Below are positions 1 to 11,780 of a stretch of DNA of 11,780 nt, one piece after another; the first letter of the stretch is position 1; every line of letters starts with the position of its first letter. The notes under the pieces are model-generated. The model worked only from the letters and a program-made list of their open reading frames with translations, was not told where the DNA came from and made no database searches. Location: IMG/VR virus record IMGVR_UViG_2548877011_000017; one strand, written 5' to 3'. A program made the translations under genes and the position numbers. The stretch is from a virus. Its lineage: Duplodnaviria > Heunggongvirae > Uroviricota > Caudoviricetes.

Positions 1-2799
1 TCAGGCACCGTGACATTTTTTGTACTTTATTCCCGAGCCACAGGGGCATTGTTCATTCCGGCCGACCGCACCAAAAACTTCAGTTAATTTAGTCTTTGCT
101 GCTTTATGGGCAAGCTGTACGATGTAATTTGATTGATTTTGGATTTCTTGACGCTGTACACCTGTGAGGCCTTCGATATAGGGAGCAAGGCGCTGCATTT
201 CGACATCAGCTGCTTTATGCTGACCCGATAGTGCTAATATGACTGCGTATTGGCTTCGAACCTGAATCAGTCGATGTACTAGACCTGCCTCATTGACAAC
301 CGGCAGGACATGTTGCTCCATGACTTCCTTGGCACCGTCGTAATCCTTTATGGCAACAAACTCATCCGCCAGATCTTGGCCCACCCTGACCATGGATTCC
401 GGGGCCATGGCCAGATTGTAGAACTTCATCGAATGAATACGCAGTAATGGTGACAGTTTTCCCTGCGCATCACGAATTCTGGCCAGCAACTCCAGAGCAT
501 CAGCCATATGTTTAAAGTGTTCCTGCATATTTTCGGAATGATTAATAGTTTTCCATAATGCGTCGGCGTTTTTTCCTATGACATCAGCAGGTGTGATACC
601 AAATAAAGAATAGTACCCTTGTATAACATTACAGCTTAATGTTTCAGCATCCTTGAGTTTTTTTAATCTCCAGAGTGCAATGGCATGGTTGTAGTCAAAG
701 ATGCGTTTATGTTCTTCATCTGGGAGTTGGGGGCGGACTTCCTGTGCCAGCTTTTGAACTTCTCGTGCATCATTGCTTTCTGCCGAAAATAACATTCGTT
801 TCATTGCATAGGCCATCTCTTCTTGATAGCCGAACTTGTGCTCCGCAAGTAAAGCTCCCATGATGTTTAACCTCTGAGCAATGTGGTCGGATATTCCGTC
901 TTTAAGCTCAACGAAAACAAGGCCATCCAATGCCCAGAATTTATGAACAGGTCCCAATAAGTCCGATGTTGCAGCACGCTCCAAGCTTGCAAGAATGTCG
1001 ACCGTCACGCCCATCTCATAAAACATTTCTTGGCCTGAGAGTTCGATCAACGTCGTGACATCATTGAGCTTAATATAAAGTTGAGTCAACAACGATAACC
1101 GTTTTGTATTGCGGGTATTATGAAGACTTTCAACTAAAAGGTCTTTCAGCGCTAGTAGCGCTTTGTTCGATATACCCTGATCCATCAGTTCCAGATGTTG
1201 CAGTCCTAGCCCCCTGACAGCATCATGTACCTTCAGGGTCTGGTTTCCATAAATTTCAATAGTGCCAGTAGCGCGCATTTTCCTAATTAAAGAAGCAGCA
1301 CTGCTTGGTGAAATGTTCAGCGAATTGATTAGGAGCGTAGAAATCTCTTCGCGACTCAGCCCTACGTCAGAGAGACTGAACAATGCCAGCGCGCTCTGAA
1401 GTAGTGATTCAAATCCCTGAAATACACGTGACAGAATAATTTCTTGGGCGGTTTCCGCAGTATGGGTTTGTTGCTGGAGTTCAGCACACAGAGCATCGAC
1501 ATTACGCTCATAATCAGAAACGGCGATTTTTGCGGCGCTCTCTACATACAGGGGAAGACCACCAGTGTAAGCCCGTAGCTGCTCGTATCCCATAGCGGTG
1601 GCAAATCCTCCGATATCGTTTACAACGACAGCTACCGTATCGAGATTCCATCCCTGCAGGCCCTCGCGCTGTAGCCCCGTCATGACCTCCAGTTCGCGAA
1701 CGTTTTCGTGAGGCTGGCACAACAGCACAAAACGAATATGTGTAGTTGCATTCAGAACATCCAGTAGATTTTCCGCAGGTACACGATGGGCGTTATCCAG
1801 AACCAGCACCAAGGTGGTACCCTGCTCTTTCAGGTAGGTATCAAAACTCCTAAGAGCCTCAAAACCACTGGCACCGGGGAGCAAAATCCTGCGCAAACCG
1901 TCTTGGTCACGGGCTGTAAATCTAGCAGCCATCTCGCGCACCAGCGTACTGGCCAGAGCTGGACCGGGAAGATCACCGGTGTCGTAATAAGCACAAAGTG
2001 CAGTGGAGTGTAATGCGGCCTGTGCGGCCCAAGCTGTCTTGCCTGCACCTGAGAGTCCACAAAGGATACGGATCCGCTCACCAGATGTGAGAGAAGGTTC
2101 TTCGTTCTGTGGGCGGTACAGTGCTGGTGGTGCAGGAAAGTCCTGTAGCTGAACGATCAACTGTTCAAATAGTTCAGTAAGTTCTTCCGTGAAAAACGTA
2201 TGTTGTCCATTGGTATCGCCTCCGGTGGCGGCAAGCTGAACCAATCCTGCTAACTTCCAAATCAAGGATTCTGGGGACAATAGTGAAAATTTCAGCTTTT
2301 CTGCTTCTGCGATACACCATGTGGCCGCATCAGCCAGAGTACTCCATGCGGGCGGAAGTGCCGGGTGACGTCCAGCTGTCGACTGGGGCCAGACAATAAG
2401 AACATCAGAAGGAAGCTTTTTATCGTCAATCATCTTCTGAAGCAGCGGTCCAGGCGCCTGGTTTACAATAATCACAAAAGAAGCCACCCCTTCGCGGTTT
2501 GCCGAAGTATGCTCATTTCTGAGCTTTACAAATCGCTCCAGAGCCCCCGACACATCGTTGGGCATAATAGGTTTTGAACGGGTTTTAACCTGAATGTAGA
2601 GACGTTCCTGTTTGGATTTCAGCTCAATATCCTCATCAAGCTCGACAGTTACTGAGTCCATAGCTGCCCTCTGCGCCAAAAGTAAGCAGCCTACAGCGTA
2701 AAGATGCTGGTAAAGGAACCCCCGGTGTACCGCTTCGATACGCACCAACTGCACAGGATCCAGTACGTCCAGATTTTGTTTGTTTTCACTTCCCCACAT
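1..2799 (-). CDS. Multidomain NTPase (932 aa): N-terminal PD-(D/E)xK-like nuclease-type domain, central STAND-type P-loop NTPase, helical C-terminal region, terminal SEC-C zinc motif; candidate anti-phage defence protein
   Basis: Complete ORF: ATG at 2799-2797 with AAGGAA 6 nt upstream (plus-strand ttcctt 2806-2811) and TGA at 3-1. Translation shows Walker A GLSGAGKT (nt ~2035-2058), Walker B-like LVLVLDNAH, a following IRFVLLCQPHE strand, an N-terminal GFLYQ...VELDEDIEL...YIQVK pattern (E/D...QxK type nuclease core) and C-terminal CPCGSGIKYKKCHG (nt ~10-51). The CDS call is confident; the function is inferred. Confidence 0.85.
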   Translation of the reverse strand: MWGSENKQNLDVLDPVQLVRIEAVHRGFLYQHLYAVGCLLLAQRAAMDSVTVELDEDIELKSKQERLYIQVKTRSKPIMPNDVSGALERFVKLRNEHTSANREGVASFVIIVNQAPGPLLQKMIDDKKLPSDVLIVWPQSTAGRHPALPPAWSTLADAATWCIAEAEKLKFSLLSPESLIWKLAGLVQLAATGGDTNGQHTFFTEELTELFEQLIVQLQDFPAPPALYRPQNEEPSLTSGERIRILCGLSGAGKTAWAAQAALHSTALCAYYDTGDLPGPALASTLVREMAARFTARDQDGLRRILLPGASGFEALRSFDTYLKEQGTTLVLVLDNAHRVPAENLLDVLNATTHIRFVLLCQPHENVRELEVMTGLQREGLQGWNLDTVAVVVNDIGGFATAMGYEQLRAYTGGLPLYVESAAKIAVSDYERNVDALCAELQQQTHTAETAQEIILSRVFQGFESLLQSALALFSLSDVGLSREEISTLLINSLNISPSSAASLIRKMRATGTIEIYGNQTLKVHDAVRGLGLQHLELMDQGISNKALLALKDLLVESLHNTRNTKRLSLLTQLYIKLNDVTTLIELSGQEMFYEMGVTVDILASLERAATSDLLGPVHKFWALDGLVFVELKDGISDHIAQRLNIMGALLAEHKFGYQEEMAYAMKRMLFSAESNDAREVQKLAQEVRPQLPDEEHKRIFDYNHAIALWRLKKLKDAETLSCNVIQGYYSLFGITPADVIGKNADALWKTINHSENMQEHFKHMADALELLARIRDAQGKLSPLLRIHSMKFYNLAMAPESMVRVGQDLADEFVAIKDYDGAKEVMEQHVLPVVNEAGLVHRLIQVRSQYAVILALSGQHKAADVEMQRLAPYIEGLTGVQRQEIQNQSNYIVQLAHKAAKTKLTEVFGAVGRNEQCPCGSGIKYKKCHGA

Positions 2800-2859
2800 G
2801 ACCTATTCCTTGAGCTATTTGTTTGACGGACTCACATTAGTACTTCAATGTAATCAATT

Positions 2860-2900
2860 GAACTTGAATTATAATTAAAAGAGGCAAAGAAAAGTCATTT
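2860..2900 (-). promoter_or_regulatory. Candidate sigma70 promoter for the 932-aa gene
   Basis: Perfect TATAAT on the minus strand (plus-strand attata at 2868-2873), with a weak -35-like ATGACT/TGACTT 18-19 nt upstream, inside a 243-bp AT-rich spacer. No transcription start data. Confidence 0.3.
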
Positions 2901-2965
2901 GGCCTATTCTCCGTTGATTAATACAAACTAACGATACCAACGTTCACCTAGCTCAAAGCTGACAA

Positions 2966-2980
2966 CCAGACTAGGTCTGG
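2966..2980. promoter_or_regulatory. Perfect 15-bp palindrome CCAGAC-TAG-GTCTGG in the spacer upstream of the 932-aa gene (possible operator or RNA hairpin)
   Basis: Read directly: 6-bp arms around a 3-bp centre. It is not followed by a T-run on either strand, so it is not called a terminator. Confidence 0.3.
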
Positions 2981-3042
2981 GCCTGTGCCATCGAAGTGTC
3001 AATTAATATCTGAACTAATGCTCTTTAATTTCGTCACTTCAA

Positions 3043-3213
3043 TTAATACCGAACATTTCCCTGATAAAATTCCAGTATGCGCTGCATAACTTCGCTCTGA
3101 CGACACTCGCGACAAATTATATTCTGTCGTCTGTTGTAACGGCGTATTTCGCCATCTAGCAATGAATAAATCAGGTCAGGGTCGCTCTTCTTTTTCACTG
3201 CCGCTCTCGACAT
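3043..3213 (-). CDS. Small hypothetical protein (56 aa from ATG 3213), or the C-terminal part of a frameshifted longer protein
   Basis: Open frame MSRAAVKKKSDPDLIYSLLDGEIRRYNRRQNIICRECRQSEVMQRILEFYQGNVRY ending at TAA 3045-3043. The ATG sits at the end of an A8 run (plus-strand T8 3213-3220), with no convincing SD. The ORF track extends this frame to ATG 3294, overlapping the upstream gene by 119 nt. Confidence 0.35.
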   Translation of the reverse strand: MSRAAVKKKSDPDLIYSLLDGEIRRYNRRQNIICRECRQSEVMQRILEFYQGNVRY

Positions 3214-3451
3214 TTTTTTTGCGGGCTTTTCCCCAGTCCTTACGAGCCTGCTCCGAAGGAAATATTCCATGTCCTGAACCATATACTGCGCCACTAACTA
3301 CCAGCTCTTTCACCAGAACTTCTATCAGGTGTCTCGTCGCCCCGGTTTCATTTTCCAGTTGTTTACGCGTTTTTCGCCCATCTCTGCGTACCAGTTCCAC
3401 AATGCGCGCCTTCACTTCTTCCCGCAGTTCGGGAGTAAAAACTTTTGCCAC
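3176..3451 (-). CDS. Small basic hypothetical protein (91 aa), possibly DNA-binding
   Basis: GTG start at 3451-3449 preceded by a strong AGGAGG 4 nt upstream (plus-strand cctcct 3456-3461); TGA at 3178-3176. Translation is K/R/E-rich with a helix-turn-helix-like stretch (TRKQLENETGATRHLIEVLV). Its frame ends 12 codons after the A8 tract. Confidence 0.6.
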   Translation of the reverse strand: MAKVFTPELREEVKARIVELVRRDGRKTRKQLENETGATRHLIEVLVKELVVSGAVYGSGHGIFPSEQARKDWGKARKKNVESGSEKEERP

Positions 3452-3488
3452 AAGCCCTCCTGAAAATTACCCCATGACCTGAAATCTG

Positions 3489-4559
3489 TTACCCTCTGAA
3501 TCCCGGCGGAATTTCGGTGTCCGGTTCAGAAATATGATTAACACAACGCTGGTTGTTCGTGCCGCTTACCGGGAGCAACCAGGGGTTTTCAAAATTCCGG
3601 TCCGGTCCAAAAAACGTCGTCGCTCGCTGAACAAATTCCGTTCCCGTTTTCCCGGTAGCAGCCAGGTATCTTGTGTAACGCCTTACACCATCCAGCATGG
3701 CCTCTGGTGGCACCCCCTCGCGTAATCTGGCCTTCCAGGCACTGAAAGCGGATTTCTTCGGGTTTGCCCCGGCTCGTAACGGGTATTCCCGCCAGACCTG
3801 TTCGAACACATCCGGATAATCCACTCGTCCCACAGGCTGCCCGGTGTTTTCCGGGACTACCCGATCGGCTTCCCGCTGAATGGCGGAATCGGCTTCAGGC
3901 TGCTGCAGTTGGTGTGATTGCTCCGGCCCAGCGGTCATCGCCTGCTGCACAGCGCCCGAATCGGCTTTCAGCGCATACGCTGAATCGGCTTCCGGTGTCG
4001 TGCCTGCGGGCTGGCCAGGAGTGACGGTCTGAACATCCCCTACATGGTTCGTGGCGTTTTTTACGCCATGGACCATAGTGTTTTGATCTTCTTTATCTGT
4101 ATCTCTATCTGTATCTTTATCTGTCGTGACTCGTCGTGACATGTGCGTGACATTTCGTGACGCGCCGTGACAATCGCCATTTTGTTCCCGCTTTCTTTCC
4201 CTCTCACGCTGCGCCCTCTTGCGCTCTGCCGGAGATTTTGCGGTTTGCGAAATATTGCCGTTGTCCTCTTTAAGCACCTGGCGTTTTTCCCATCCAGTGA
4301 TTAAATCACCATCAAGTACCCGCCCCTGCATCGTCTGCAAAATTGAATCAATTACCTCTTCTGTCACGTCGAGCGCACTTGCCAAATCTTCTGTCGTGAC
4401 ATCAATGTGACCTCGCGTGACATTTCGTGACGCGCTCACCAGGAGGTGGATATACACTGCCATCACTGTTGCAATTGGCTGCCCTGACACCCTGGCAATT
4501 GTTCGCCACTTAGGGTCATTTGGCATGTCATGCCATAATCTGAGCCAGGCGTTAGCCAT
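3489..4559 (-). CDS. Phage replication initiation protein (lambda O-like replisome organiser) with the origin embedded in the gene
   Basis: N-terminus MANAWLRLWHDMPNDPKWRTIA is typical of phage replisome-organiser N-terminal domains; there is a low-complexity acidic/Q-rich linker and a conserved-looking C-terminal domain. ATG 4559 has GAGGTGA upstream; the ORF track begins 2 codons earlier at GTG 4565. Iteron clusters lie inside the coding sequence. Confidence 0.8.
   Translation of the reverse strand: MANAWLRLWHDMPNDPKWRTIARVSGQPIATVMAVYIHLLVSASRNVTRGHIDVTTEDLASALDVTEEVIDSILQTMQGRVLDGDLITGWEKRQVLKEDNGNISQTAKSPAERKRAQRERERKREQNGDCHGASRNVTHMSRRVTTDKDTDRDTDKEDQNTMVHGVKNATNHVGDVQTVTPGQPAGTTPEADSAYALKADSGAVQQAMTAGPEQSHQLQQPEADSAIQREADRVVPENTGQPVGRVDYPDVFEQVWREYPLRAGANPKKSAFSAWKARLREGVPPEAMLDGVRRYTRYLAATGKTGTEFVQRATTFFGPDRNFENPWLLPVSGTNNQRCVNHISEPDTEIPPGFRG
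4125..4171. repeat. Iteron cluster A: five CGTGAC repeats with 10-11 bp phasing, flanked by a (TATCTGTATCT)n AT-rich stretch (4091-4124); putative ori
   Basis: CGTGAC at 4125, 4135, 4146, 4156 and 4166, read directly. The helical-turn spacing inside an initiator gene matches lambda-type ori organisation. Confidence 0.55.
4395..4431. repeat. Iteron cluster B: four (C/T)GTGAC repeats with 10-11 bp phasing
   Basis: CGTGAC at 4395, 4416 and 4426 and TGTGAC at 4406. The 19-mer CGTGACATTTCGTGACGCG is shared with cluster A (4146-4164 vs 4416-4434). An inverted copy GTCACG lies at 4363-4368. Confidence 0.5.
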
Positions 4560-4630
4560 ACTCACCTCTTCTGATACCGAATCTTTTTACTCACGAATTG
4601 CCGGAAGCGATTCGATATGGCTATTGTCAG

Positions 4631-5056
4631 TCAATGTACTGCCACAGCATTTCCTGCCGGGCCACCACGGTTCATCTGATTGAAACCGGCGATTGCCACT
4701 GCGACAAAATCATCAGCGTCTCTCACCAGTCGCTCCCGCGTCTCCACCAACTCCCGAAAATAAGCTGAACTGTGGCTGCGCATTCTGGCCACCAGCAAAG
4801 GTGGCATTGCCTTTTCGATCGCTGGTAACAACGCCTGAATTTTTTCAACTGCATCAGGGGTGTCTTTCTCTACCCAGCGGAAAATTTTCTGGGTATTGCG
4901 AGCCAGGGCTTCCGGATGGCTGTCGTCATACAGTTCAGGAAACGTCATACCCAACTCAAAATAAGCCTGGGTTATTCCAGCTGCTGGAACTTTTTCGCCA
5001 TCAGGACGCGCCCAGGCATTCATCGCCATGCGGATGTGTTCATGCTTGATTTTCAT
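4631..5056 (-). CDS. YdaT-like protein (141 aa; CII-position protein of Rac/CP-933P-type lambdoid prophages)
   Basis: ATG 5056-5054 with AGGAG 8 nt upstream. The size and position directly downstream of the Cro/YdaS-like gene match the ydaS-ydaT arrangement. The start overlaps the upstream gene end by 17 nt. Confidence 0.7.
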   Translation of the reverse strand: MKIKHEHIRMAMNAWARPDGEKVPAAGITQAYFELGMTFPELYDDSHPEALARNTQKIFRWVEKDTPDAVEKIQALLPAIEKAMPPLLVARMRSHSSAYFRELVETRERLVRDADDFVAVAIAGFNQMNRGGPAGNAVAVH

Positions 5057-5321
5057 GAATCAAGCTCCTAGTAAGTGGTTGTGTTAACGTTTTGGTATCT
5101 TCCAGCTCGGGCCAAATATTCATCCAATCAAAAGGCCTTAGTTGCTGACGTGTAACTTCACCATTACTGGCTCGCTCAATAAGGACACATAACGATGCCC
5201 CTAACATTTGACCTTTACTCAATGCCTTTCTTAGATAACCGATGCTAGTACCACACTCACATGCAAACATACGCTGTTCATCTGACGAAAGAGAATTGAG
5301 AAATATTCTTAATTCTTCCAT
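5040..5321 (-). CDS. Cro/YdaS-like HTH regulator (93 aa)
   Basis: ATG 5321-5319 with AAGGAG 6 nt upstream. HTH-like segment CECGTSIGYLRKALSKGQ and a C-terminal GEVTRQQLRPFDW motif characteristic of YdaS-type Cro proteins. Divergent from the repressor gene. Confidence 0.75.
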   Translation of the reverse strand: MEELRIFLNSLSSDEQRMFACECGTSIGYLRKALSKGQMLGASLCVLIERASNGEVTRQQLRPFDWMNIWPELEDTKTLTQPLTRSLIHENQA

Positions 5322-5333
5322 AGCTACTCCTTA

Positions 5334-5420
5334 GTAAACACAGCAAAGAATACCCACAGGTAAACAAAAGTCAATACCCTTGGGTTGTTTACCTTGCGGT
5401 AATCGCATCTATTATTTACC
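5334..5420. promoter_or_regulatory. Divergent promoter/operator region between the Cro-like and repressor genes, with four copies of a GTAAACA half-site
   Basis: GTAAACA 5334-5340, GGTAAACA 5359-5366, inverted TGTTTACC 5386-5393 and TATTTACC 5413-5420, spaced about 25-27 bp in a 100-bp divergent intergenic region. Confidence 0.45.
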
Positions 5421-5421
5421 T

Positions 5422-5841
5422 ATGGACAAATATGAATTTAGACGACAACAACTCATCAAAATTCGTGATGAGAAATGCGATGGTAAAGCGGTTAACGTGG
5501 CCAGAAAGATCGGTCGCGAGCCTTCTTATGTATCAAGAATGTTGTACCCAGAGGGGAAAAAAGGAAAAAAACGGATCGCTGATGATATGGTGGAGATTAT
5601 AGAAGAGTCCTTTGGGTTACCCCGGGGATGGATGGATGGTATCGTTTCATCATCAACGAACACAGCCTCCAATTATGAAACAAGGGTTCTAACGCCACGA
5701 CAACGTATTTTTTTAGATCTCTTAGACGAACTGCCAGAAAGTGAAGCGGATAACTTATTAAAAACTCTTGAAGAGAAAAAACAGTATTACAATATGATCT
5801 ACGAAGAAATCCGTAAAAAGAAAGCACAAAACGCATCATAA
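5422..5841 (+). CDS. CI/DicA-like prophage repressor (139 aa from ATG 5422)
   Basis: HTH segment KAVNVARKIGREPSYVSRML and a C-terminal LTPRQRIFLDLLDELPESEADN region resembling the DicA/RacR C-terminus; stop TAA 5839-5841. The ORF track start at 5380 is a TTG; ATG 5422 is preferred although it has a weak SD. Confidence 0.8.
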   Translation: MDKYEFRRQQLIKIRDEKCDGKAVNVARKIGREPSYVSRMLYPEGKKGKKRIADDMVEIIEESFGLPRGWMDGIVSSSTNTASNYETRVLTPRQRIFLDLLDELPESEADNLLKTLEEKKQYYNMIYEEIRKKKAQNAS

Positions 5842-5882
5842 CTCACCAAACAACCAGTCACCAGTTAAGACACATCAAAAAA

Positions 5883-5921
5883 TTACCCATGGGTATTTAC
5901 TTTTTGGATACCCATGGGTAT
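5883..5921. promoter_or_regulatory. Two near-identical 14-bp palindromes (TTACCCATGGGTAT and ATACCCATGGGTAT) 25 bp apart; candidate operator pair over the promoter of the downstream small-gene operon
   Basis: Palindromes at 5883-5896 and 5908-5921. A possible -35 TTTACT (5896-5901) and -10 TATCCT (5919-5924) with a 17-bp spacer overlap them. Confidence 0.4.
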
Positions 5922-6106
5922 CCTTCCTTTCATACCAACCCACCCCACCCCACAGAATGCAGGGCAATACTTCGAGTTACCAGGCAGTGGTCAGGGGTTA
6001 AGTAGCCAGCCCGAGGCGTAAGAACATGACGGCAGGGTTCAACTTTAATAACTATGCAGCAGGTTTTTGTTCCGCTACCCCGGCGTTAAGGGGAAATGAG
6101 GTCAAC

Positions 6107-6262
6107 ATGGATACTATCGATCTTGGCAACAACGAATCTCTGGTGTACGGCGTGTTTCCCAACCAGGACGGTACGTTCACCGCGATGACGTATACCAAAA
6201 GCAAAACGTTTAAAACCGAAAATGGTGCCCGTCGCTGGCTGGAAAGAAACTCAGGTGAGTGA
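6107..6262 (+). CDS. ydfA: YdfA-like small protein (51 aa), copy 1
   Basis: MDTIDLGNNESLVYGVFPNQDGTFTAMTYTKSKTFKTENGARRWLERNSGE; GAGGT 4 nt upstream of ATG 6107. The length and sequence match my recollection of Qin-prophage YdfA (DUF1391). The ORF track gives a longer alternative from ATG 6026. Confidence 0.65.
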   Translation: MDTIDLGNNESLVYGVFPNQDGTFTAMTYTKSKTFKTENGARRWLERNSGE

Positions 6263-6263
6263 T

Positions 6264-6392
6264 ATGGATTTCGACACAATCATGGAAAAGGCTTACGAAG
6301 AATACTTCGAAGGTCTTGCCGAAGGCGAAGAAGCTCACAGCTTCAACGAATTTAAACAGGTGCTTTCCAGTTCGGCAAAATCTAACGGCTGA
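6264..6392 (+). CDS. ydfB: YdfB-like small protein (42 aa), copy 1
   Basis: ATG 6264 lies 1 nt after the ydfA-like stop, with GGTGAG upstream; translation MDFDTIMEKAYEEYFEGLAEGEEAHSFNEFKQVLSSSAKSNG, stop TGA 6390-6392. Below the ORF-track size cut-off; identified by manual translation. Confidence 0.6.
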   Translation: MDFDTIMEKAYEEYFEGLAEGEEAHSFNEFKQVLSSSAKSNG

Positions 6393-6421
6393 TAAGCGAA
6401 ACAGCACCGCGAGGAATCAGT

Positions 6422-6622
6422 ATGCAGAAACGAGAACCCGTCATCATCGCGCCAGACTATACCGATGATGAACTTTATGAGTGGATGCACCAGAAAATTA
6501 ATGCAGCGCAGGATCTGAAATGGGCCAATGAAGCCAGAGCTAAGCAGGCTGAAAATCTGTCCGCTCTGGAGCAGGATATCACCAATCTGGAAACGAGTTA
6601 CCAGGCAGTGGTCACGGGTTAA
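6422..6622 (+). CDS. ydfC: YdfC-like protein, copy 1 (66 aa; C-terminus altered by the duplication junction)
   Basis: GAGGAA 7 nt upstream of ATG 6422. It matches copy 2 through ...QDITNLE, then reads across the repeat junction into copy 2 (TSYQAVVTG stop). Confidence 0.6.
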   Translation: MQKREPVIIAPDYTDDELYEWMHQKINAAQDLKWANEARAKQAENLSALEQDITNLETSYQAVVTG

Positions 6623-6727
6623 GTAGCCAGCCCGAGGCGTAAGAACATGACGGCAGGGTTCAACTTTAATAACTATGCAGCAGGTTTTTGTTCCGCTACC
6701 CCGGCGTTAAGGGGAAATGAGGTCAGC

Positions 6728-6883
6728 ATGGATACTATCGATCTTGGCAACAGCGAATCTCTGGTATGTGGCGTGTTCCCCAACCAGTACGGTACGTTCA
6801 CCGCAATGACGTATACCAAAAGCAAAACGTTTAAAACCGAATCTGGAGCGCGTCGCTGGCTGGAAAGAAATTCAGGTGGGTGA
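6728..6883 (+). CDS. ydfA: YdfA-like small protein (51 aa), copy 2
   Basis: Paralogue of 6107-6262 at +621 offset, with 4 amino-acid differences; same RBS context. Confidence 0.65.
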   Translation: MDTIDLGNSESLVCGVFPNQYGTFTAMTYTKSKTFKTESGARRWLERNSGG

Positions 6884-6884
6884 T

Positions 6885-7013
6885 ATGGATTTCGACACAA
6901 TCATGGAAAAGGCTTACGAAGAATACTTCGAAGGCCTTGCCGAAGGCGAAGAAGCTCACAGCTTCAACGAATTTAAACAGGTGCTTTCCAGTTCGGCAAA
7001 ATCTAATGGCTGA
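6885..7013 (+). CDS. ydfB: YdfB-like small protein (42 aa), copy 2
   Basis: Paralogue of 6264-6392 at +621 offset; ATG 6885, stop TGA 7011-7013. Confidence 0.6.
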   Translation: MDFDTIMEKAYEEYFEGLAEGEEAHSFNEFKQVLSSSAKSNG

Positions 7014-7042
7014 TAAGCGAAACAGCACCGCGAGGAATCAGT

Positions 7043-7324
7043 ATGCAGAAACGAGAACCCGTCATCATCGCGCCAGACTATACCAATGATGAACTTTATG
7101 AGTGGATGCACCAGAAAATTAATGCAGCGCAGGATCTGAAATGGGCTAATGAAGTCAGGGCTAAGCAGGCTGAAAATCTGTCCTCTCTGGAGCAGGATAT
7201 CACCAATCTGGAAAAAGAAACGTTAATACGTCTGAAGGTTGTTTTGAAATTGGTGTCACTATCAGTAACCCTGTATTTACTGAAGATGCCATTAACAAGA
7301 GAAAACACGAACGGGAGCTATTAA
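7043..7324 (+). CDS. ydfC: YdfC-like protein, copy 2 (93-aa ORF; the C-terminal 36 residues overlap the dicB-like frame)
   Basis: Same start context as copy 1. After DITNLE it continues KETLIRLKVV... to TAA 7322-7324, reading the dicB-like region in a different frame. Confidence 0.6.
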   Translation: MQKREPVIIAPDYTNDELYEWMHQKINAAQDLKWANEVRAKQAENLSSLEQDITNLEKETLIRLKVVLKLVSLSVTLYLLKMPLTRENTNGSY

Positions 7325-7389
7325 ATAAAATATGCATTCTTTCAATGCTGGCCCGTTTACGTCCGATACAAAAAGGATGCTGGCAATGA
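7219..7389 (+). pseudogene. dicB: dicB-like (cell-division inhibitor) reading frame with no start codon; 5'-truncated remnant or frameshift-dependent frame
   Basis: Frame translation NVNTSEGCFEIGVTISNPVFTEDAINKRKHERELLNKICILSMLARLRPIQKGCWQ matches my recollection of E. coli Qin DicB (62 aa) over residues 7-62. The frame is open from stop 7171-7173 but has no ATG/GTG/TTG before NVNTSE. Its TGA 7387-7389 overlaps the ATG of the next gene (ATGA). Confidence 0.4.
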
Positions 7390-7577
7390 ATACAGCATTT
7401 GCACTTGTTCTGACAGTTTTTCTTGTTTCCGGAGAGCCAGTTGATATTGCAGTCAGTGTTCACAGGACAATGCAGGAGTGTGTGACTGCAGCAACCGAAC
7501 AGAAAATTCCCGGTAACTGTTACCCGGTCGATAAAGTTATTCACCAGGATAATAACGAAATCCCGGCAGGTCTTTAA
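7386..7577 (+). CDS. ydfD: YdfD-like small hydrophobic protein (63 aa)
   Basis: ATG 7386 with AAGGA 9 nt upstream; MNTAFALVLTVFLVSGEPVDIAVSVHRTMQEC... has a hydrophobic N-terminus. The length and sequence match my recollection of Qin YdfD. The ORF track gives longer in-frame alternatives from 7332 and 7377. Confidence 0.65.
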   Translation: MNTAFALVLTVFLVSGEPVDIAVSVHRTMQECVTAATEQKIPGNCYPVDKVIHQDNNEIPAGL

Positions 7578-7669
7578 AACAGTTCCGTAATAAACATCCG
7601 ATTTCATTCTTATATGCCAGCAATGGCAGGGATTTGTTCACCCTTAAATCTGTAATGAGGTAAAACAAA

Positions 7670-10141
7670 ATGAGTAAAGTCTTTATTTGCGCCGCCATTC
7701 CGGACGAACAGGCAATAAAGGAAGAAGGTGCAGTCGCTGTAGCCACAGCTATTGAAGCTGGCGACGAACGCCGTGCTCGAGCAAAATTTCACTGGCAATT
7801 CCTGGAACATTATCCGGCTGCTCAGGACTGCGCTTATAAATTTATTGTCTGCGAGGATAAACCTGGCATACCCCGCCCTGCCCTCGATTCATGGGATGCT
7901 GAATATATGCAGGAAAACCGCTGGGATGAGGAGTCTGCTTCCTTTGTCCCGGTTGAGACTGAATCCGATCCGATGAACGTCACTTTTGACAAGCTGGCCC
8001 CTGAAGTACAGAACGCTGTCATGGTTAAGTTCGACACATGTGAAAACATCACCGTTGATATGGTTATTAGCGCACAGGAATTGTTGCAGGAAGACATGGC
8101 AACATTCGACGGACATATCGTTGAAGCGTTGATGAAAATGCCAGAAGTTAACGCCATGTATCCGGAGCTTAAGCTGCATGCCATCGGGTGGGTTAAGCAT
8201 AAATGTAAGCCTGGTGCCAAATGGCCCGAAATTCAGGCAGAGATGCGCATCTGGAAAAAACGTCGCGAAGGTGAACGCAAGGAAACCGGAAAATACACGT
8301 CTGTTGTTGATCTCGCCCGCGCCAGAACCAATCAACAGCACACTGAAAATTCAACAGGAAAAATCAGCCCGGTCATTGCTGCCATTCATCGCGAATACAA
8401 GCAGACATGGAAAACACTGGATGACGAACTGGCCTACGCTCTCTGGCCTGGTGATGTGGATGCCGGAAACATTGACGGCAGCATCCATCGCTGGGCAAAA
8501 AATGAAGTTATCGACAACGACCGCGAAGACTGGAAGCGTATCTCGGCATCAATGCGCAAACAGCCTGATGCCCTTCGCTACGACCGCCAGACTATTTTTG
8601 GCCTTGTCCGTGAACGTCCGATCGACATTCACAAAGATCCCGTAGCACTGAACAAATATATCTGCGAATACCTGACGACAAAGGGCGTGTTTGAGAATGA
8701 AGAAACAGACCTGGGCACTGTTGATGTTCTCCAGTCATCAGAAACACAAACTGATGCAGTGGAAACTGAGGTATCTGATATCCCAAAAAATGAAACCGCG
8801 CCGGAAGCTGAACCATCTGTAGAGCGTGAGGGGCCGTTCTACTTCCTCTTCACCGACAAGGATGGCGAAAAATACGGTCGCGCAAACAAACTTTCTGGTC
8901 TGGATAAGGCGCTGTCTGCTGGGGCTACTGAAATCACGAAAGAAGAATATTTCGCCCGCAAAAACGGTACATACTCAGGTTCACAACAAAATACTGGTGC
9001 ATCTGACACGACCGCACAACCAGGGCCGGTAAAAGTTACCGCTGACGAAGTAAACAAAATTATGCAGGCAGCCAATATCAGCCAGCCTGACGCCGATGAA
9101 CTGCTTGCAGTATCACGTGGTGAATTTGTTGAAGGGATTAGCGACCCGAATGATCCGAAATGGGTTAAGGGGATCCAGACCCGCGATTCTGTGAACCAGA
9201 ACCAGCAAGAAACGGAACAGAACGACCAGAAAGCGGAACAAAACAGCCCAAATACGCAACAAAACGAGCCAGAAACGAAACAACCTGAACCAGTAGTGCA
9301 ACAGGAACCGGAAAAGATCTGCACCGCCTGCGGTCAGAGCGGTGGCGGCAACTGCCCTGATTGTGGTGCGGTGATGGGTGACGCAACATACCAGGAAATA
9401 TTCGATGGAGAGAATCAGCCTGAAGTTCAGGAAAATGATCCGGAGGAAATGGAAGGCACTGCGCATCAGCACAAGGAGAACACTGGCGGCAATCAGCATC
9501 ATGCCAGCGATAGTGAAACTGGCGAGGCGTCAGATCCCTTAATTAAGGCGAACGGTCATCATAATCTCACATCCACCAGCAGAGCGGGGATTCATCTGAT
9601 GATCGACCTTGAAACCATGGGAAAAAATCCCGATGCCCCGATTATCTCAATAGGTGCAATATTTTTCGATCCGCAAACCGGAGATATGGGACCGGAATTT
9701 AGTAAGACTATCGATCTGGAAACTGCTGGCGGAGTCATTGATCGGGACACCATTAAATGGTGGCTTAAGCAATCACGCGAAGCGCAATCTGCCATTATGA
9801 CCGATGAAATCCCGTTAGATGATGCACTGTTACAATTGCGGGAATTTATCGACGAAAACTCCGGTGAATTTTTTGTTCATGTCTGGGGAAATGGAGCCAA
9901 CTTCGACAACACGATTTTGCGCCGTTCATACGAACGGCAGGGGATCCCCTGCCCGTGGCGTTACTACAACGATCGCGATGTACGCACAATCGTTGAGCTG
10001 GGGAAAGCCATAGACTTCGATGCCAGAACGGCTATTCCATTCGAAGGTGAGCGCCATAATGCACTTGATGACGCCCGTTACCAGGCAAAATACGTTTCAG
10101 CTATCTGGCAAAAACTGATCCCGAGTCAGGCTGATTCTTAA
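7670..10141 (+). CDS. Large phage protein (823 aa) with C-terminal DnaQ-like DEDDh 3'-5' exonuclease domain, internal Cys4 zinc ribbon and Q/E/N-rich linker
   Basis: ATG 7670 with GAGGT about 10 nt upstream. C-terminal motifs HLMIDLETMG (Exo I, D-x-E), WGNGANFDNT (Exo II) and HNALDDARYQA (Exo III, H-x4-D) at nt ~9590-10130; CTAC-x9-CPDC at nt ~9320-9363. It occupies the slot before xis-int where Qin has the ydfE fragment and Rac has recE. Confidence 0.85.
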   Translation: MSKVFICAAIPDEQAIKEEGAVAVATAIEAGDERRARAKFHWQFLEHYPAAQDCAYKFIVCEDKPGIPRPALDSWDAEYMQENRWDEESASFVPVETESDPMNVTFDKLAPEVQNAVMVKFDTCENITVDMVISAQELLQEDMATFDGHIVEALMKMPEVNAMYPELKLHAIGWVKHKCKPGAKWPEIQAEMRIWKKRREGERKETGKYTSVVDLARARTNQQHTENSTGKISPVIAAIHREYKQTWKTLDDELAYALWPGDVDAGNIDGSIHRWAKNEVIDNDREDWKRISASMRKQPDALRYDRQTIFGLVRERPIDIHKDPVALNKYICEYLTTKGVFENEETDLGTVDVLQSSETQTDAVETEVSDIPKNETAPEAEPSVEREGPFYFLFTDKDGEKYGRANKLSGLDKALSAGATEITKEEYFARKNGTYSGSQQNTGASDTTAQPGPVKVTADEVNKIMQAANISQPDADELLAVSRGEFVEGISDPNDPKWVKGIQTRDSVNQNQQETEQNDQKAEQNSPNTQQNEPETKQPEPVVQQEPEKICTACGQSGGGNCPDCGAVMGDATYQEIFDGENQPEVQENDPEEMEGTAHQHKENTGGNQHHASDSETGEASDPLIKANGHHNLTSTSRAGIHLMIDLETMGKNPDAPIISIGAIFFDPQTGDMGPEFSKTIDLETAGGVIDRDTIKWWLKQSREAQSAIMTDEIPLDDALLQLREFIDENSGEFFVHVWGNGANFDNTILRRSYERQGIPCPWRYYNDRDVRTIVELGKAIDFDARTAIPFEGERHNALDDARYQAKYVSAIWQKLIPSQADS

Positions 10142-10152
10142 TGTTCAACTGT

Positions 10153-10184
10153 CGCCGGTTGTGACTGGTATTCTGCAACCGGCG
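10153..10184 (+). other. Inverted repeat (9-bp stem CGCCGGTTG / CAACCGGCG, 14-nt loop) between the exonuclease gene and xis; possible RNA structure
   Basis: Read directly. There is no downstream U-tract, so it is not a canonical intrinsic terminator. Confidence 0.2.
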
Positions 10185-10213
10185 CTCGTCTGATGTAAGA
10201 GATAAAGAAATCG

Positions 10214-10465
10214 ATGAGCGAAGTAATCATGATTGTCTCTCCCGGCAAATGGGTATCCGAAGAGCAGTTAATTGCGCTGAAAGGAATAAAAAAAGGTACG
10301 TTAAAAAAGGCCCGGGAAAAATCGTTTATGGAAGGAAGGGAATATAAGCATGTCGCTCATGACGGTATGCCATGGGATAACAGTCCATGCTTTTACAACC
10401 TGGAAGAAATTGATCGCTGGATTGAGCGCCAGGCATCAGCAAGACCAAGACGTCATCTTACTTGA
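10214..10465 (+). CDS. xis: Excisionase-like small DNA-binding protein (83 aa)
   Basis: Small ORF immediately upstream of the integrase on the same strand; basic N-terminal half (GKWVSEEQLIALKGIKKGTLKKAREK). The start is uncertain (ATG 10214 or 10229, both with weak SD). Confidence 0.6.
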   Translation: MSEVIMIVSPGKWVSEEQLIALKGIKKGTLKKAREKSFMEGREYKHVAHDGMPWDNSPCFYNLEEIDRWIERQASARPRRHLT

Positions 10466-10484
10466 CTAAAAGCCACACTAACTA

Positions 10485-11780
10485 ATGAGAGAAGTTGAAA
10501 TGAAATATCCGACAGGCGTGGAAAACCATGGAGGGAAATTACGTATCTGGTTTGTTTATAAAGGCGTAAGAGTCAGGGAAAATCTGGGGGTTCCTGACAC
10601 AGCAAAAAACAGGCGCGTTGCAGGTGAGCTACGCGCCTCTGTTTGTTACGCAATAAAAACTGGTGTTTTCGACTATGCAAAACAGTTTCCCTCCTCACGC
10701 AATCTGGAAAAATTTGGTGAGGCCCGACAAGATTTAACCATAAAAGAACTGGCTGAAAAATTTCTGGCACTGAAAGAAACTGAAGTCGCAAAAACATCAC
10801 TCAACACATACCGTGCCGTCATCAAAAATATCCTGAGCATAATCGGTGAAAAAAATCTTGCCTCATCGATTAATAAAGAAAAATTACTGGAGGTTCGTAA
10901 AGAGCTACTGACTGGATACCAGATCCCCAAAAGTAACTATATTGTTACACAACCAGGGAGATCGGCTGTAACTGTAAATAATTACATGACAAATCTTAAC
11001 GCCGTGTTCCAGTTTGGTGTTGATAACGGTTACCTGGCAGATAACCCGTTTAAGGGGATCTCGCCATTAAAGGAATCAAGAACCATTCCGGATCCTCTTT
11101 CGCGGGAGGAATTCATCCGTCTTATCGATGCGTGCAGAAATCAGCAAGCCAAAAATTTATGGTGTGTTTCTGTTTATACTGGCGTTCGCCCTGGTGAGCT
11201 GTGTGCACTTGGATGGGAGGACATAGATCTGAAAAATGGAACAATGATGATCAGGAGAAATTTAGCAAAAGACCGTTTCACGGTACCAAAAACACAGGCG
11301 GGAACCAATCGGGTCATTCATCTTATTAAGCCAGCAATCGACGCTCTCCGGAGTCAGATGACATTAACGAGACTGAGCAAAGAGCATATCATTGATGTTC
11401 ACCTCAGAGAGTATGGCAGAACAGAAAAACATAAATGCACCTTTGTTTTTCAACCTGAAGTGTCAGCGAGAGTAAAAAATTATGGTGACCATTTTACCGT
11501 TGACTCAATAAGGCAGATGTGGGACGCAGCGATAAAACGTGCCGGACTCCGCCATCGAAAATCATATCAGTCGAGACATACTTATGCCTGCTGGTCGCTG
11601 ACAGCTGGTGCTAACCCGGCATTTATAGCAAACCAGATGGGCCATGCAGATGCGCAAATGGTATTTCAGGTATACGGAAAATGGATGTCTGAAAACAATA
11701 ATGCACAGGTAGCTTTGTTAAATACACAGTTAAGCGAGTTTGCCCCAACCATGCCCCATAACGAAGCAATGAAAAATTAA
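10485..11780 (+). CDS. int: Phage tyrosine integrase (site-specific recombinase, 431 aa)
   Basis: C-terminal catalytic region with R...HxxR (SRHTYA) and the probable tyrosine in QVYGKWM; N-terminal arm-binding-like domain (GVENHGGKLRIWFVYKGVRVRENLG). Stop TAA is at 11778-11780, the window edge. An alternative start is ATG 10500. Confidence 0.9.
   Translation: MREVEMKYPTGVENHGGKLRIWFVYKGVRVRENLGVPDTAKNRRVAGELRASVCYAIKTGVFDYAKQFPSSRNLEKFGEARQDLTIKELAEKFLALKETEVAKTSLNTYRAVIKNILSIIGEKNLASSINKEKLLEVRKELLTGYQIPKSNYIVTQPGRSAVTVNNYMTNLNAVFQFGVDNGYLADNPFKGISPLKESRTIPDPLSREEFIRLIDACRNQQAKNLWCVSVYTGVRPGELCALGWEDIDLKNGTMMIRRNLAKDRFTVPKTQAGTNRVIHLIKPAIDALRSQMTLTRLSKEHIIDVHLREYGRTEKHKCTFVFQPEVSARVKNYGDHFTVDSIRQMWDAAIKRAGLRHRKSYQSRHTYACWSLTAGANPAFIANQMGHADAQMVFQVYGKWMSENNNAQVALLNTQLSEFAPTMPHNEAMKN

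What the first reader, a model, noticed from the sequence alone, without database searches (positions are those of the whole stretch)
7171..7389. dicB-like frame lacks its start codon and begins at the duplication boundary
56 codons match the remembered DicB sequence from residue 7 to the end, but there is no start codon in frame. The upstream ydfC-like ORF reads across the region in another frame next to an A5 run (7212-7216), and no dicF-like sRNA region is evident. The break coincides with the right edge of the tandem repeat, suggesting a recombination or deletion scar. The frame still ends in ATGA overlap with ydfD-like, so coupling to downstream genes is preserved.
Basis: partly seen in the sequence, partly recalled or inferred. 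Interest (0 to 1): 0.6.

Follow-up and report, generated by a model that had tools for sequence, protein, structure and literature searches.

The report
Start-less dicB remnant at rearrangement scar
One copy of a well-known prophage cell-division-inhibitor operon in a 2012 E. coli draft genome has lost the DicF RNA gene and the first six codons of dicB, leaving a dead gene fragment that is seen in no other genome and may be an assembly error.

Summary
The frame at 7174-7386 matches DicB residues 7-62 exactly (56/56) and has no ATG, GTG or TTG before codon 49. No DicF is detectable in the window. The break lies at the right edge of a 621-bp repeat.

The window comes from the draft genome of E. 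coli NCCP15657 (AJLU01000085) and covers a Qin-like prophage beside rspB. Intact relatives carry a 629-bp stretch here: ydfC codons 59-72, dicF, the dicB ribosome-binding site and dicB codons 1-6. In the window that stretch is missing. In its place are 624 bp (6594-7217) carrying a second ydfA-ydfB-ydfC' copy.

This second copy is not a fresh duplicate. It differs from copy 1 at 22 sites and is 100% identical to a different, racR-type prophage that is also present in the closest complete genome. Both junctions are blunt. Neither junction occurs in 5,426 complete E. coli genomes, in three contig collections, or among 15 billion proteins.

The remnant is almost certainly inactive: published ΔN6/ΔN7 truncations and N-terminal fusions of DicB lose most activity. 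The scar is either an assembly or gap-filling chimera between two related prophages (about 0.55) or a private illegitimate recombination (about 0.4). Only reads or resequencing can decide. Interest is low.

The parts
5973..6593 (+). Repeat copy 1 (A type, native to this prophage). It holds ydfA (6107-6262), ydfB (6264-6392) and ydfC codons 1-57 (from 6422). The ORF then runs into 9 foreign codons and stops at 6622.
   Evidence: Window 1-6593 is 99.97% identical to Z1323HEC0108 (L002), 2 mismatches. Gene names are taken from the annotation of L002. The 66-aa truncated YdfC is found on one contig only.
6593..6594 (.). Junction J2. ydfC codon 57 (A type) is joined bluntly to the intergenic sequence upstream of ydfA (B type, L001 2695).
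   Evidence: The parental sequences share no microhomology on either side. The junction is not contiguous in any of 5,426 complete E. coli genomes.
6594..7217 (+). Repeat copy 2 (B type, matching a second, paralogous prophage). It holds ydfA (6728-6883), ydfB (6885-7013) and ydfC codons 1-58 (7043-7216).
   Evidence: 624/624 identical to L001 2695-3318 (O103:H2 12009) and to the racR-type prophage of Z1323HEC0108 (L004). It has 22 mismatches to copy 1 and 24 to the A-type copy of Z1323HEC0108.
7217..7218 (.). Junction J1. ydfC codon 58/59 is joined bluntly to the third base of dicB codon 6. 629 bp are missing: ydfC codons 59-72, dicF, the dicB SD (GAGGA) and ATG, and dicB codons 1-6.
   Evidence: This corresponds to L001 3318|3948. 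There is no microhomology. DicF lies at L001 3705-3756 and L002 8483-8534, inside the missing stretch. A 29-mer across J1 is absent from the metagenome, viral and GTDB genome contigs and from the complete E. coli genomes.
7043..7324 (+). Chimeric ORF of 93 aa. It consists of YdfC residues 1-58 followed by 35 residues read from dicB DNA in the wrong frame.
   Evidence: The exact protein (WP_001171967.1) is the only member of its 90%-identity cluster among about 15 billion proteins and sits on one contig.
7218..7389 (+). dicB remnant: codons 7-62 plus the stop. It has no start codon and no ribosome-binding site, so it is a pseudogene fragment.
   Evidence: Pfam DicB profile positions 7-62 of 62, E=6e-33. 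56/56 identity to WP_000449192.1. No ATG, GTG or TTG before residue 49.
7386..7577 (+). ydfD (63 aa, DUF1482, lysis protein). The gene is intact, with its own AAGGA 8 nt upstream. Its ATG overlaps the dicB stop (ATGA).
   Evidence: Pfam DUF1482, E=3.7e-25. The exact protein is seen on at least 1000 contigs.
7670..10141 (+). Full-length ydfE-type 3'-5' exonuclease gene (823 aa), the downstream part of the operon.
   Evidence: Pfam YdfE_N, YdfE_C and Rv2179c-like, from the collection's precomputed hits. Annotated as 'exonuclease' in relatives.

Best explanation
The frame is a dead remnant of dicB (codons 7-62) in one copy of the prophage dicBF operon (ydfA-ydfB-ydfC-dicF-dicB-ydfD-ydfE). The 629 bp that normally carry the end of ydfC, the DicF sRNA, the dicB ribosome-binding site and dicB codons 1-6 are absent. 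In their place is a 624-bp ydfA-ydfB-ydfC' segment whose sequence is that of a second, paralogous (racR-type) prophage.

Nothing initiates translation in the dicB frame. The only ORF that crosses the junction is in another frame. As written, this locus therefore makes neither DicF nor DicB, while ydfD and ydfE stay intact.

The most likely origin is that the arrangement is not biological. I think it is a chimera made when a short-read draft of a strain with several near-identical prophages was scaffolded and gap-filled: three pieces (A-left, B-left and the shared dicB-ydfD-ydfE piece) were abutted, and the repeated ydfC3'-dicF-dicB5' piece was left out.

Shown: the anatomy of the locus, its uniqueness, the paralogous origin of copy 2, and the lack of a start codon. 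Inferred: the loss of function and the artefactual origin. The confidence given (0.55) is for the artefactual origin. That the remnant is inactive, whatever its origin, I put at about 0.95.
For: Identity and truncation.

Missing dicF.

Replacement rather than duplication: window 1-10149 spans 10,157 bp in Z1323HEC0108 (629 bp out, 621-624 bp in). The left part is 99.97% identical to that genome, which has an intact ydfC-dicF-dicB.

Paralogous origin of copy 2: it is 100% identical to the racR-type prophage present in the same relative and in O103:H2 12009, and it differs from copy 1 at 22 sites.

Junction anatomy: both junctions have zero microhomology. The two left breakpoints fall 3 nt apart in ydfC (L001 3315 and 3318), just after the last site that distinguishes the two paralogues. 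J2 is exactly 30 nt after that site. This is where paths unique to each paralogue would end in an assembly graph.

Uniqueness: neither junction is contiguous in 5,426 complete E. coli genomes or in phage records. The J1 29-mer is absent from three contig collections. The fusion protein and the truncated YdfC each occur on one contig among 15 billion proteins.

Source: a 2012 draft of strain NCCP15657. The same laboratory's sister strains were assembled from 500-bp-insert Illumina reads with CLC, SSPACE, IMAGE and manual gap filling (PMC4436796).

Loss of function even if the frame were translated: DicB ΔN6/ΔN7 and N-terminal fusions lose most division-inhibiting activity (PMC4967827).
Against: No reads were available, so the artefact is inferred and not shown.

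The assembly method of NCCP15657 itself could not be read. Only the sister strains' method is documented.

Graph-based misassemblies usually join through shared k-mers, and these joins are blunt. A concatenation step or manual step therefore has to be assumed.

The 30-nt spacing fits k=31 only for J2. Copy 2 ends 33 nt after the same site, and the boundaries at L001 2695 and 3948 are not explained by differences between the A and B paralogues. I could not reconstruct a specific pipeline step that yields exactly this product.

The exact exonuclease protein downstream is listed in UniRef100 with n=8 members, so the right flank may be a natural haplotype.
Confidence: 0.55

Rival explanations
1. 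The rearrangement is real and private to strain NCCP15657. Illegitimate, homology-independent joining between two prophages in the same cell put a racR-type ydfA-ydfC' fragment in place of ydfC3'-dicF-dicB5' in the Qin-site prophage. One route would be end joining after breaks at the same ydfC site in both copies. Another would be two successive events. The result is a copy of the operon that has lost both division inhibitors but keeps the lysis gene ydfD and the exonuclease.
For: The sequence is a deposited contig without ambiguous bases, and the ORFs on both sides are intact.

Prophage regions of this family are visibly mosaic. Alleles of the A type and the B/C type alternate downstream. The same early region sits next to different integrase modules in different strains.

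Blunt joins are not what a k-mer graph produces by itself.

Strains with several dicBF operons (PMC6832061) can lose one copy at no cost, and dicF and dicB are toxic when expressed (PMC10448788).
Against: E. coli lacks classical end joining, and two zero-microhomology junctions 624 bp apart are unusual.

Two independent events would have to break ydfC within 3 nt of each other. For breakpoints spread over about 1 kb that is roughly 1% (inference).

Template switching is not supported, because the 3' ends have no complementarity to the acceptor sites.

The closest relative, 99.97% identical on the left flank, is intact.

No second occurrence exists in any collection searched.
Confidence: 0.4
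2. An in-situ tandem duplication of the 621-bp ydfA-ydfB-ydfC' unit occurred within one prophage, and a deletion then formed at its right edge.
For: There are two head-to-tail copies with period 621, and the dicB break lies at the right edge of copy 2.
Against: The copies differ at 22 of 621 sites. Copy 2 is 624/624 identical to a different prophage lineage, and copy 1 is A type. A recent duplication would give identical copies. An old duplication would not leave copy 2 identical to another prophage, and it would be seen in other genomes, which it is not.
Confidence: 0.03
3. The remnant is expressed. One route is a -1 ribosomal slip at the A-run (GAA AAA G, 7211-7217), which would carry ribosomes from the ydfC frame into the dicB frame and give a YdfC(1-58)::DicB(7-62) fusion. 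The other route is initiation at a non-canonical codon inside the dicB frame.
For: The dicB frame is -1 relative to the ydfC frame. In the shifted frame the A-site Lys codon AAA re-pairs with AAA (read). One extra A in the run would fuse the two frames.
Against: G_GAA_AAA is not an X_XXY_YYZ heptamer. The downstream fold is unremarkable (z=-1.58) and the hairpin starts about 25 nt away. A5 is too short for efficient transcriptional slippage (established knowledge). The junction is unique, so there is no conservation to support an evolved signal. N-terminal fusions and the ΔN6 truncation largely disable DicB anyway (PMC4967827).
Confidence: 0.02

Closest known systems
dicBF operon of the Qin cryptic prophage of E. 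coli K-12 (ydfA-ydfB-ydfC-dicF-dicB-ydfD-ydfE, repressed by DicA)
   Same: The gene order and gene families are the same: ydfA (DUF1391), ydfB, ydfC, dicB, ydfD (DUF1482) and ydfE-type exonuclease. The chromosomal site is also the same, next to rspB-rspA-ynfA-ynfB-speG. The region lies downstream of a CI-like repressor gene in the prophage immunity region (PMC6832061, PMC10448788).
   Different: dicF is absent. dicB lacks its ribosome-binding site, start codon and codons 1-6. ydfA-ydfB-ydfC' is present twice. ydfE, the excisionase gene and the integrase gene are full length here; from memory, K-12 Qin is disrupted at these genes. The repressor here is a 139-aa protein with no Pfam hit.
Intact paralogous operons in E. 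coli Z1323HEC0108 (tRNA-Ser-side prophage, L002) and O103:H2 12009 (racR-type prophage, L001)
   Same: Window 1-6593 is 99.97% identical to L002, and window 6594-7217 is 100% identical to L001 and L004. dicB codons 7-62 and ydfD encode the same proteins (WP_000449192.1 residues 7-62, WP_001090200.1).
   Different: Both relatives have one ydfA-ydfB-ydfC unit followed by 629 bp that contain DicF (76.7 bits) and the dicB start. The window has neither.
Engineered DicB ΔN6/ΔN7 truncations and MBP/EGFP-DicB N-terminal fusions (Yang et al. 2016, Open Biol, PMC4967827)
   Same: The remnant encodes exactly the ΔN6 polypeptide (residues 7-62). A frameshift product would be an N-terminal fusion.
   Different: The engineered constructs had a start codon and a promoter. 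They were expressed, showed weakened but not abolished activity, and still bound MinC. The remnant here has no initiation signal.

Membership tests
DicB (Pfam PF05358), cell-division inhibitor | Sequence match to the DicB profile | tested here: met
   E=6.2e-33, 112.7 bits against a cut-off of 27, but only profile positions 7-62 of 62. 56/56 identical to an annotated DicB.
DicB (Pfam PF05358), cell-division inhibitor | Complete 62-codon ORF with a start codon and ribosome-binding site | tested here: not met
   There is no ATG, GTG or TTG between the upstream stop (7171-7173) and residue 49. The native GAGGA...ATG lies in the missing 629 bp.
DicB (Pfam PF05358), cell-division inhibitor | Intact N-terminus, which is required for division inhibition | tested here: not met
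   Residues 1-6 are absent. The published ΔN2 to ΔN26 truncations all lose most activity (PMC4967827). Activity of this particular remnant was not tested.
DicB (Pfam PF05358), cell-division inhibitor | Binds MinC and causes filamentation when expressed | not testable with these tools
   This needs expression and microscopy or a pull-down experiment.
DicF sRNA (Rfam RF00039) | Match to the covariance model between ydfC and dicB | tested here: not met
   There are no hits in the window at gathering score or at E<=10 over 5300-8000. The positive controls L001 and L002 each score 76.7 bits.
dicBF operon (Qin-type) | Gene order ydfA-ydfB-ydfC-dicF-dicB-ydfD-ydfE downstream of the immunity repressor | tested here: inconclusive
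   The order is kept for ydfA, ydfB, ydfC', 'dicB, ydfD and ydfE. However, the ydfA-ydfB-ydfC' unit is doubled, dicF is missing and dicB is truncated.
Recent in-situ tandem duplication | The two copies are (near-)identical and derive from the same element | tested here: not met
   There are 22 differences in 621 bp, and copy 2 is 100% identical to a different prophage type.
Programmed -1 ribosomal frameshift site | X_XXY_YYZ slippery heptamer, a stimulatory structure 5-9 nt downstream, and conservation | tested here: not met
   The heptamer is G_GAA_AAA. The fold of 7218-7300 has z=-1.58 and the hairpin is distant. The junction is found in one record only.

The most novel reading that the evidence does not exclude
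The rearrangement is real. Both prophage copies of ydfC would have been broken at the same site (CTGGAAA^AAG), and the ends joined without homology. This produces a dicBF operon that has lost both division inhibitors (DicF and DicB) but keeps the lysis gene ydfD. Derepression of this prophage would then tend towards YdfD-driven lysis instead of protective filamentation, because DicB normally offsets YdfD lysis (PMC8835842). A small amount of a YdfC::DicB fusion could also arise by slippage at the A5 run.
Probability: 0.3. Interest if true: 0.25.

Novelty: not a real feature. Interest (0 to 1): 0.08.

Why it matters
It matters little for biology. The dicBF operon, DicB, DicF and YdfD are well studied, and pathogenic E. 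coli strains often carry several dicBF operons (PMC6832061), so a broken copy would probably be redundant.

If the scar is real, it is a private pseudogenisation with an unusual homology-free junction pair. It would also make a small natural test of what a dicBF operon does with YdfD but without DicB and DicF.

If it is an artefact, it is a useful caution. RefSeq carries two singleton 'hypothetical proteins' (WP_001171967.1 and WP_001171932.1) that exist only because of these two junctions. Tandem repeats and truncated genes in short-read drafts of genomes with many prophages should be checked against reads before they are interpreted.

Tried and rejected
1. I looked for either junction elsewhere. 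I searched the complete E. coli genomes, phage records, an exact 29-mer in the metagenome, viral and GTDB contigs, and exact and 90%-cluster protein look-ups. Nothing was found beyond the source contig.

2. I looked for a natural module boundary at ydfC codon 57/58 or at dicB codon 6 that could explain the breakpoints. Phage and prophage relatives are continuous there. The PPompW-type homology starts after ydfC, at L001 3474. Rejected.

3. I tried to explain all four breakpoints as de Bruijn node ends, using the A and B copies of the closest genome as stand-ins. Only J2 fits (30 nt after the last distinguishing site, k=31). Copy 2 ends 33 nt after the same site, and 2695 and 3948 do not fit. 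The argument is kept only as weak support.

4. I tested whether the right flank is a column-by-column consensus of collapsed paralogues. Alleles do alternate between the A type and the B/C type, and no complete genome matches better than 99.7%. However, two opposite alleles lie 3 nt apart, and UniRef lists the exact exonuclease with n=8. Inconclusive.

5. I tried to read the NCCP15657 genome announcement (PMC3393477, DOI) and a sister paper. They are not held.

6. I considered a frameshift or alternative start that would rescue DicB. The heptamer, the downstream fold, the uniqueness of the junction and the published truncation data all argue against it. Rejected.

7. I searched for a DicF remnant with permissive thresholds. 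None was found.

Full report
**What is in the sequence**

The stretch 7171-7389 starts with a TGA stop. It continues as an open frame (7174-7386) and ends in a TGA (7387-7389) that overlaps the ATG of the next gene. The translation hits Pfam DicB at E=6e-33, but only over profile positions 7-62 of 62. It is 56/56 identical to residues 7-62 of the DicB annotated in E. coli O103:H2 12009. The frame has no ATG, GTG or TTG before the residue that corresponds to DicB Met49. A 93-aa ORF (7043-7324) starts as ydfC and runs across the break in another frame, next to the A5 run at 7212-7216. Rfam finds no DicF anywhere in the window, at gathering score or at E<=10.

**Where the window comes from**

The exact 93-aa ORF is encoded on a single contig in the collection of 153 billion gene positions. 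That contig is AJLU01000085.1 of assembly GCA_000258785.1. This is the 2012 draft genome of the Shiga-toxin-producing E. coli strain NCCP15657. The contig continues into rspB, rspA, ynfA, ynfB and speG. The element therefore sits at the chromosomal site of the K-12 Qin prophage, and here it has a full-length exonuclease, excisionase and integrase.

**Comparison with intact relatives**

Window 1-6593 is 99.97% identical (2 mismatches) to a prophage of the complete genome Z1323HEC0108 (L002, called type A here). That prophage has the normal order ydfA, ydfB, ydfC, DicF, dicB, ydfD, exonuclease. Window 1-10149 corresponds to 10,157 bp in that genome.

The difference is a replacement. The 629 bp between ydfC codon 58 and the last base of dicB codon 6 are missing. 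They are L001 3319-3947 and carry ydfC codons 59-72, DicF at L001 3705-3756, and the dicB GAGGA...ATG. In their place the window has 6594-7217.

**The repeat is not a fresh duplication**

That 624-bp segment is a second ydfA-ydfB-ydfC' unit. It differs from copy 1 (5973-6593) at 22 sites. It is 624/624 identical to the corresponding part of a different, racR-type prophage (type B). I checked this in O103:H2 12009 (L001) and in Z1323HEC0108 itself (L004). The closest relative therefore carries both paralogues, and both are intact there.

**The junctions**

J2 (6593|6594) joins ydfC codon 57 of type A to a point 42 nt inside the A/B-homologous intergenic region upstream of type-B ydfA. J1 (7217|7218) joins type-B ydfC codon 58/59 to dicB codon 6/7. 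Neither junction has a single base of microhomology with the parental sequences. The two left breakpoints are 3 nt apart in ydfC coordinates (L001 3315 and 3318). Both lie just past the last site that distinguishes A from B, and J2 is exactly 30 nt past it.

**Uniqueness**

- Neither junction is contiguous in any of 5,426 complete E. coli genomes. The best hits are two separate pieces.
- No phage record has a homology boundary at these positions.
- A 29-mer across J1 is absent from the metagenome, viral and GTDB genome contig collections.
- The fusion protein is the only member of its 90%-identity cluster among about 15 billion proteins, and the 66-aa truncated YdfC created by J2 is on one contig only.
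- By contrast, the flanking proteins are common, on 383 to more than 1000 contigs.

**Function**

In K-12 the dicBF operon is transcribed from dicBp under DicA repression. DicF is cut out of the polycistronic RNA, and DicB (62 aa) recruits MinC to block division and also blocks ManYZ-dependent phage entry (PMC10448788; PMC6832061).

In the sequence as written, this copy can produce neither product. dicF is gone and the dicB frame has no initiation signal.

Rescue by a -1 slip at the A-run is geometrically possible, because the dicB frame is -1 relative to the ydfC frame, but it is not supported. The heptamer G_GAA_AAA is non-canonical. The downstream fold is ordinary (z=-1.58). There is no conservation to suggest an evolved signal.

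Even a translated product would be crippled. Yang et al. showed that DicB ΔN2 to ΔN26, including ΔN6 and ΔN7, and N-terminal MBP or EGFP fusions all lose most inhibitory activity (PMC4967827).

ydfD keeps its own AAGGA and ATG. However, the ATGA overlap no longer implies coupling, because ribosomes on the crossing ORF stop at 7324. If the locus is real, it would express the lysis protein YdfD without DicB, which normally offsets that lysis (PMC8835842). Other dicBF copies in the strain would probably compensate.

**Origin**

I see two readings and cannot separate them without reads.

(a) Assembly or gap-closure chimera, about 0.55. Strains of this kind carry several near-identical dicBF prophages. 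Here a patch that exactly matches a paralogue is set between two blunt joins, and the piece that A and B share is the piece that is missing. Both paralogue-specific pieces stop at almost the same coordinate, just after their last distinguishing site. Nothing like this exists elsewhere. Sister genomes from the same laboratory were built from 500-bp-insert Illumina reads with CLC, SSPACE, IMAGE and manual gap filling (PMC4436796).

Against this reading, I could not read the method used for this strain. Blunt joins require a concatenation step. Only one of the four boundaries fits a simple k=31 argument.

(b) A genuine, private illegitimate recombination between the two prophages, about 0.4. The family is visibly mosaic, and losing one toxic operon copy costs nothing. 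Against this, two homology-free joins and two coincident breakpoints are unusual for E. coli, and template switching has no priming homology.

**Verdict**

The locus is an inactive, rearranged copy of a well-known operon, seen in one draft assembly only. Interest is low.

Noticed in passing
window 5884-5920 (+): A long hairpin or inverted repeat with 16 pairs counted (TACCCATGGGTA...TACCCATGGGTA), followed by a T-rich tail. It lies between the CI-like repressor gene (5422-5841) and ydfA, just outside the duplicated unit. It could be a terminator or an operator-like palindrome of the dicBp region.
   Followed up: no
window 1-2799 (-): A 932-aa protein with a C-terminal SEC-C motif. The collection's precomputed Pfam hits also list weak AAA_22 and weak Cap4-nuclease hits, and there is a weak N-terminal hit to the Lamassu effector LmuA (E=5e-7). 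It is a possible prophage-borne anti-phage defence gene. The exact protein is on 383 contigs.
   Followed up: partly
window 6337 and 6361: These are the only two differences between window 1-6593 and Z1323HEC0108. At both sites copy 1 carries the type-B allele. This could be a short gene-conversion tract or bleed-through between paralogues during assembly.
   Followed up: partly
window 7218-8400: Alleles alternate between type A and type B/C at successive variable sites, including opposite alleles 3 nt apart at 7844 and 7847. No complete E. coli genome matches 7218-8700 better than 99.7%.
   Followed up: partly
window ~10150-11780 versus L002 11658-13157: Here this early region is joined to an excisionase and integrase next to rspB (the Qin site). 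The near-identical early region (99.3% identity over the aligned parts of window 1-10149) in Z1323HEC0108 is joined to a different DUF4224/integrase module next to a tRNA-Ser gene. The integration modules appear to have been swapped.
   Followed up: no
O111 genomes, for example NC_013364.1 1440321-1440975: In O111 strains the ydfC-codon-57 and dicB-codon-7 landmarks are about 544 bp apart instead of 629 bp. This suggests a natural variant of the ydfC-dicF-dicB spacer that is about 85 bp shorter.
   Followed up: no
L005 (NZ_CP027388.1, ompW-site prophage) 2344-3172: The PPompW-type prophage has ydfA followed directly by the dicF-dicB region, with no annotated ydfB or ydfC. Its homology to the racR type starts only after ydfC, at L001 3474.
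   Followed up: partly
window 3176-3451 (-) versus L002 4543-4951: The DUF977 gene is an intact 91-aa ORF here, but it is annotated as frameshifted in the otherwise near-identical Z1323HEC0108 prophage.
   Followed up: no
window 7332-7577 (+): An ATG at 7332 gives an in-frame, 18-codon N-terminal extension of ydfD (81 aa) that overlaps the 3' end of dicB. It is probably only a by-product of mechanical ORF listing, because relatives annotate the 63-aa form.
   Followed up: no
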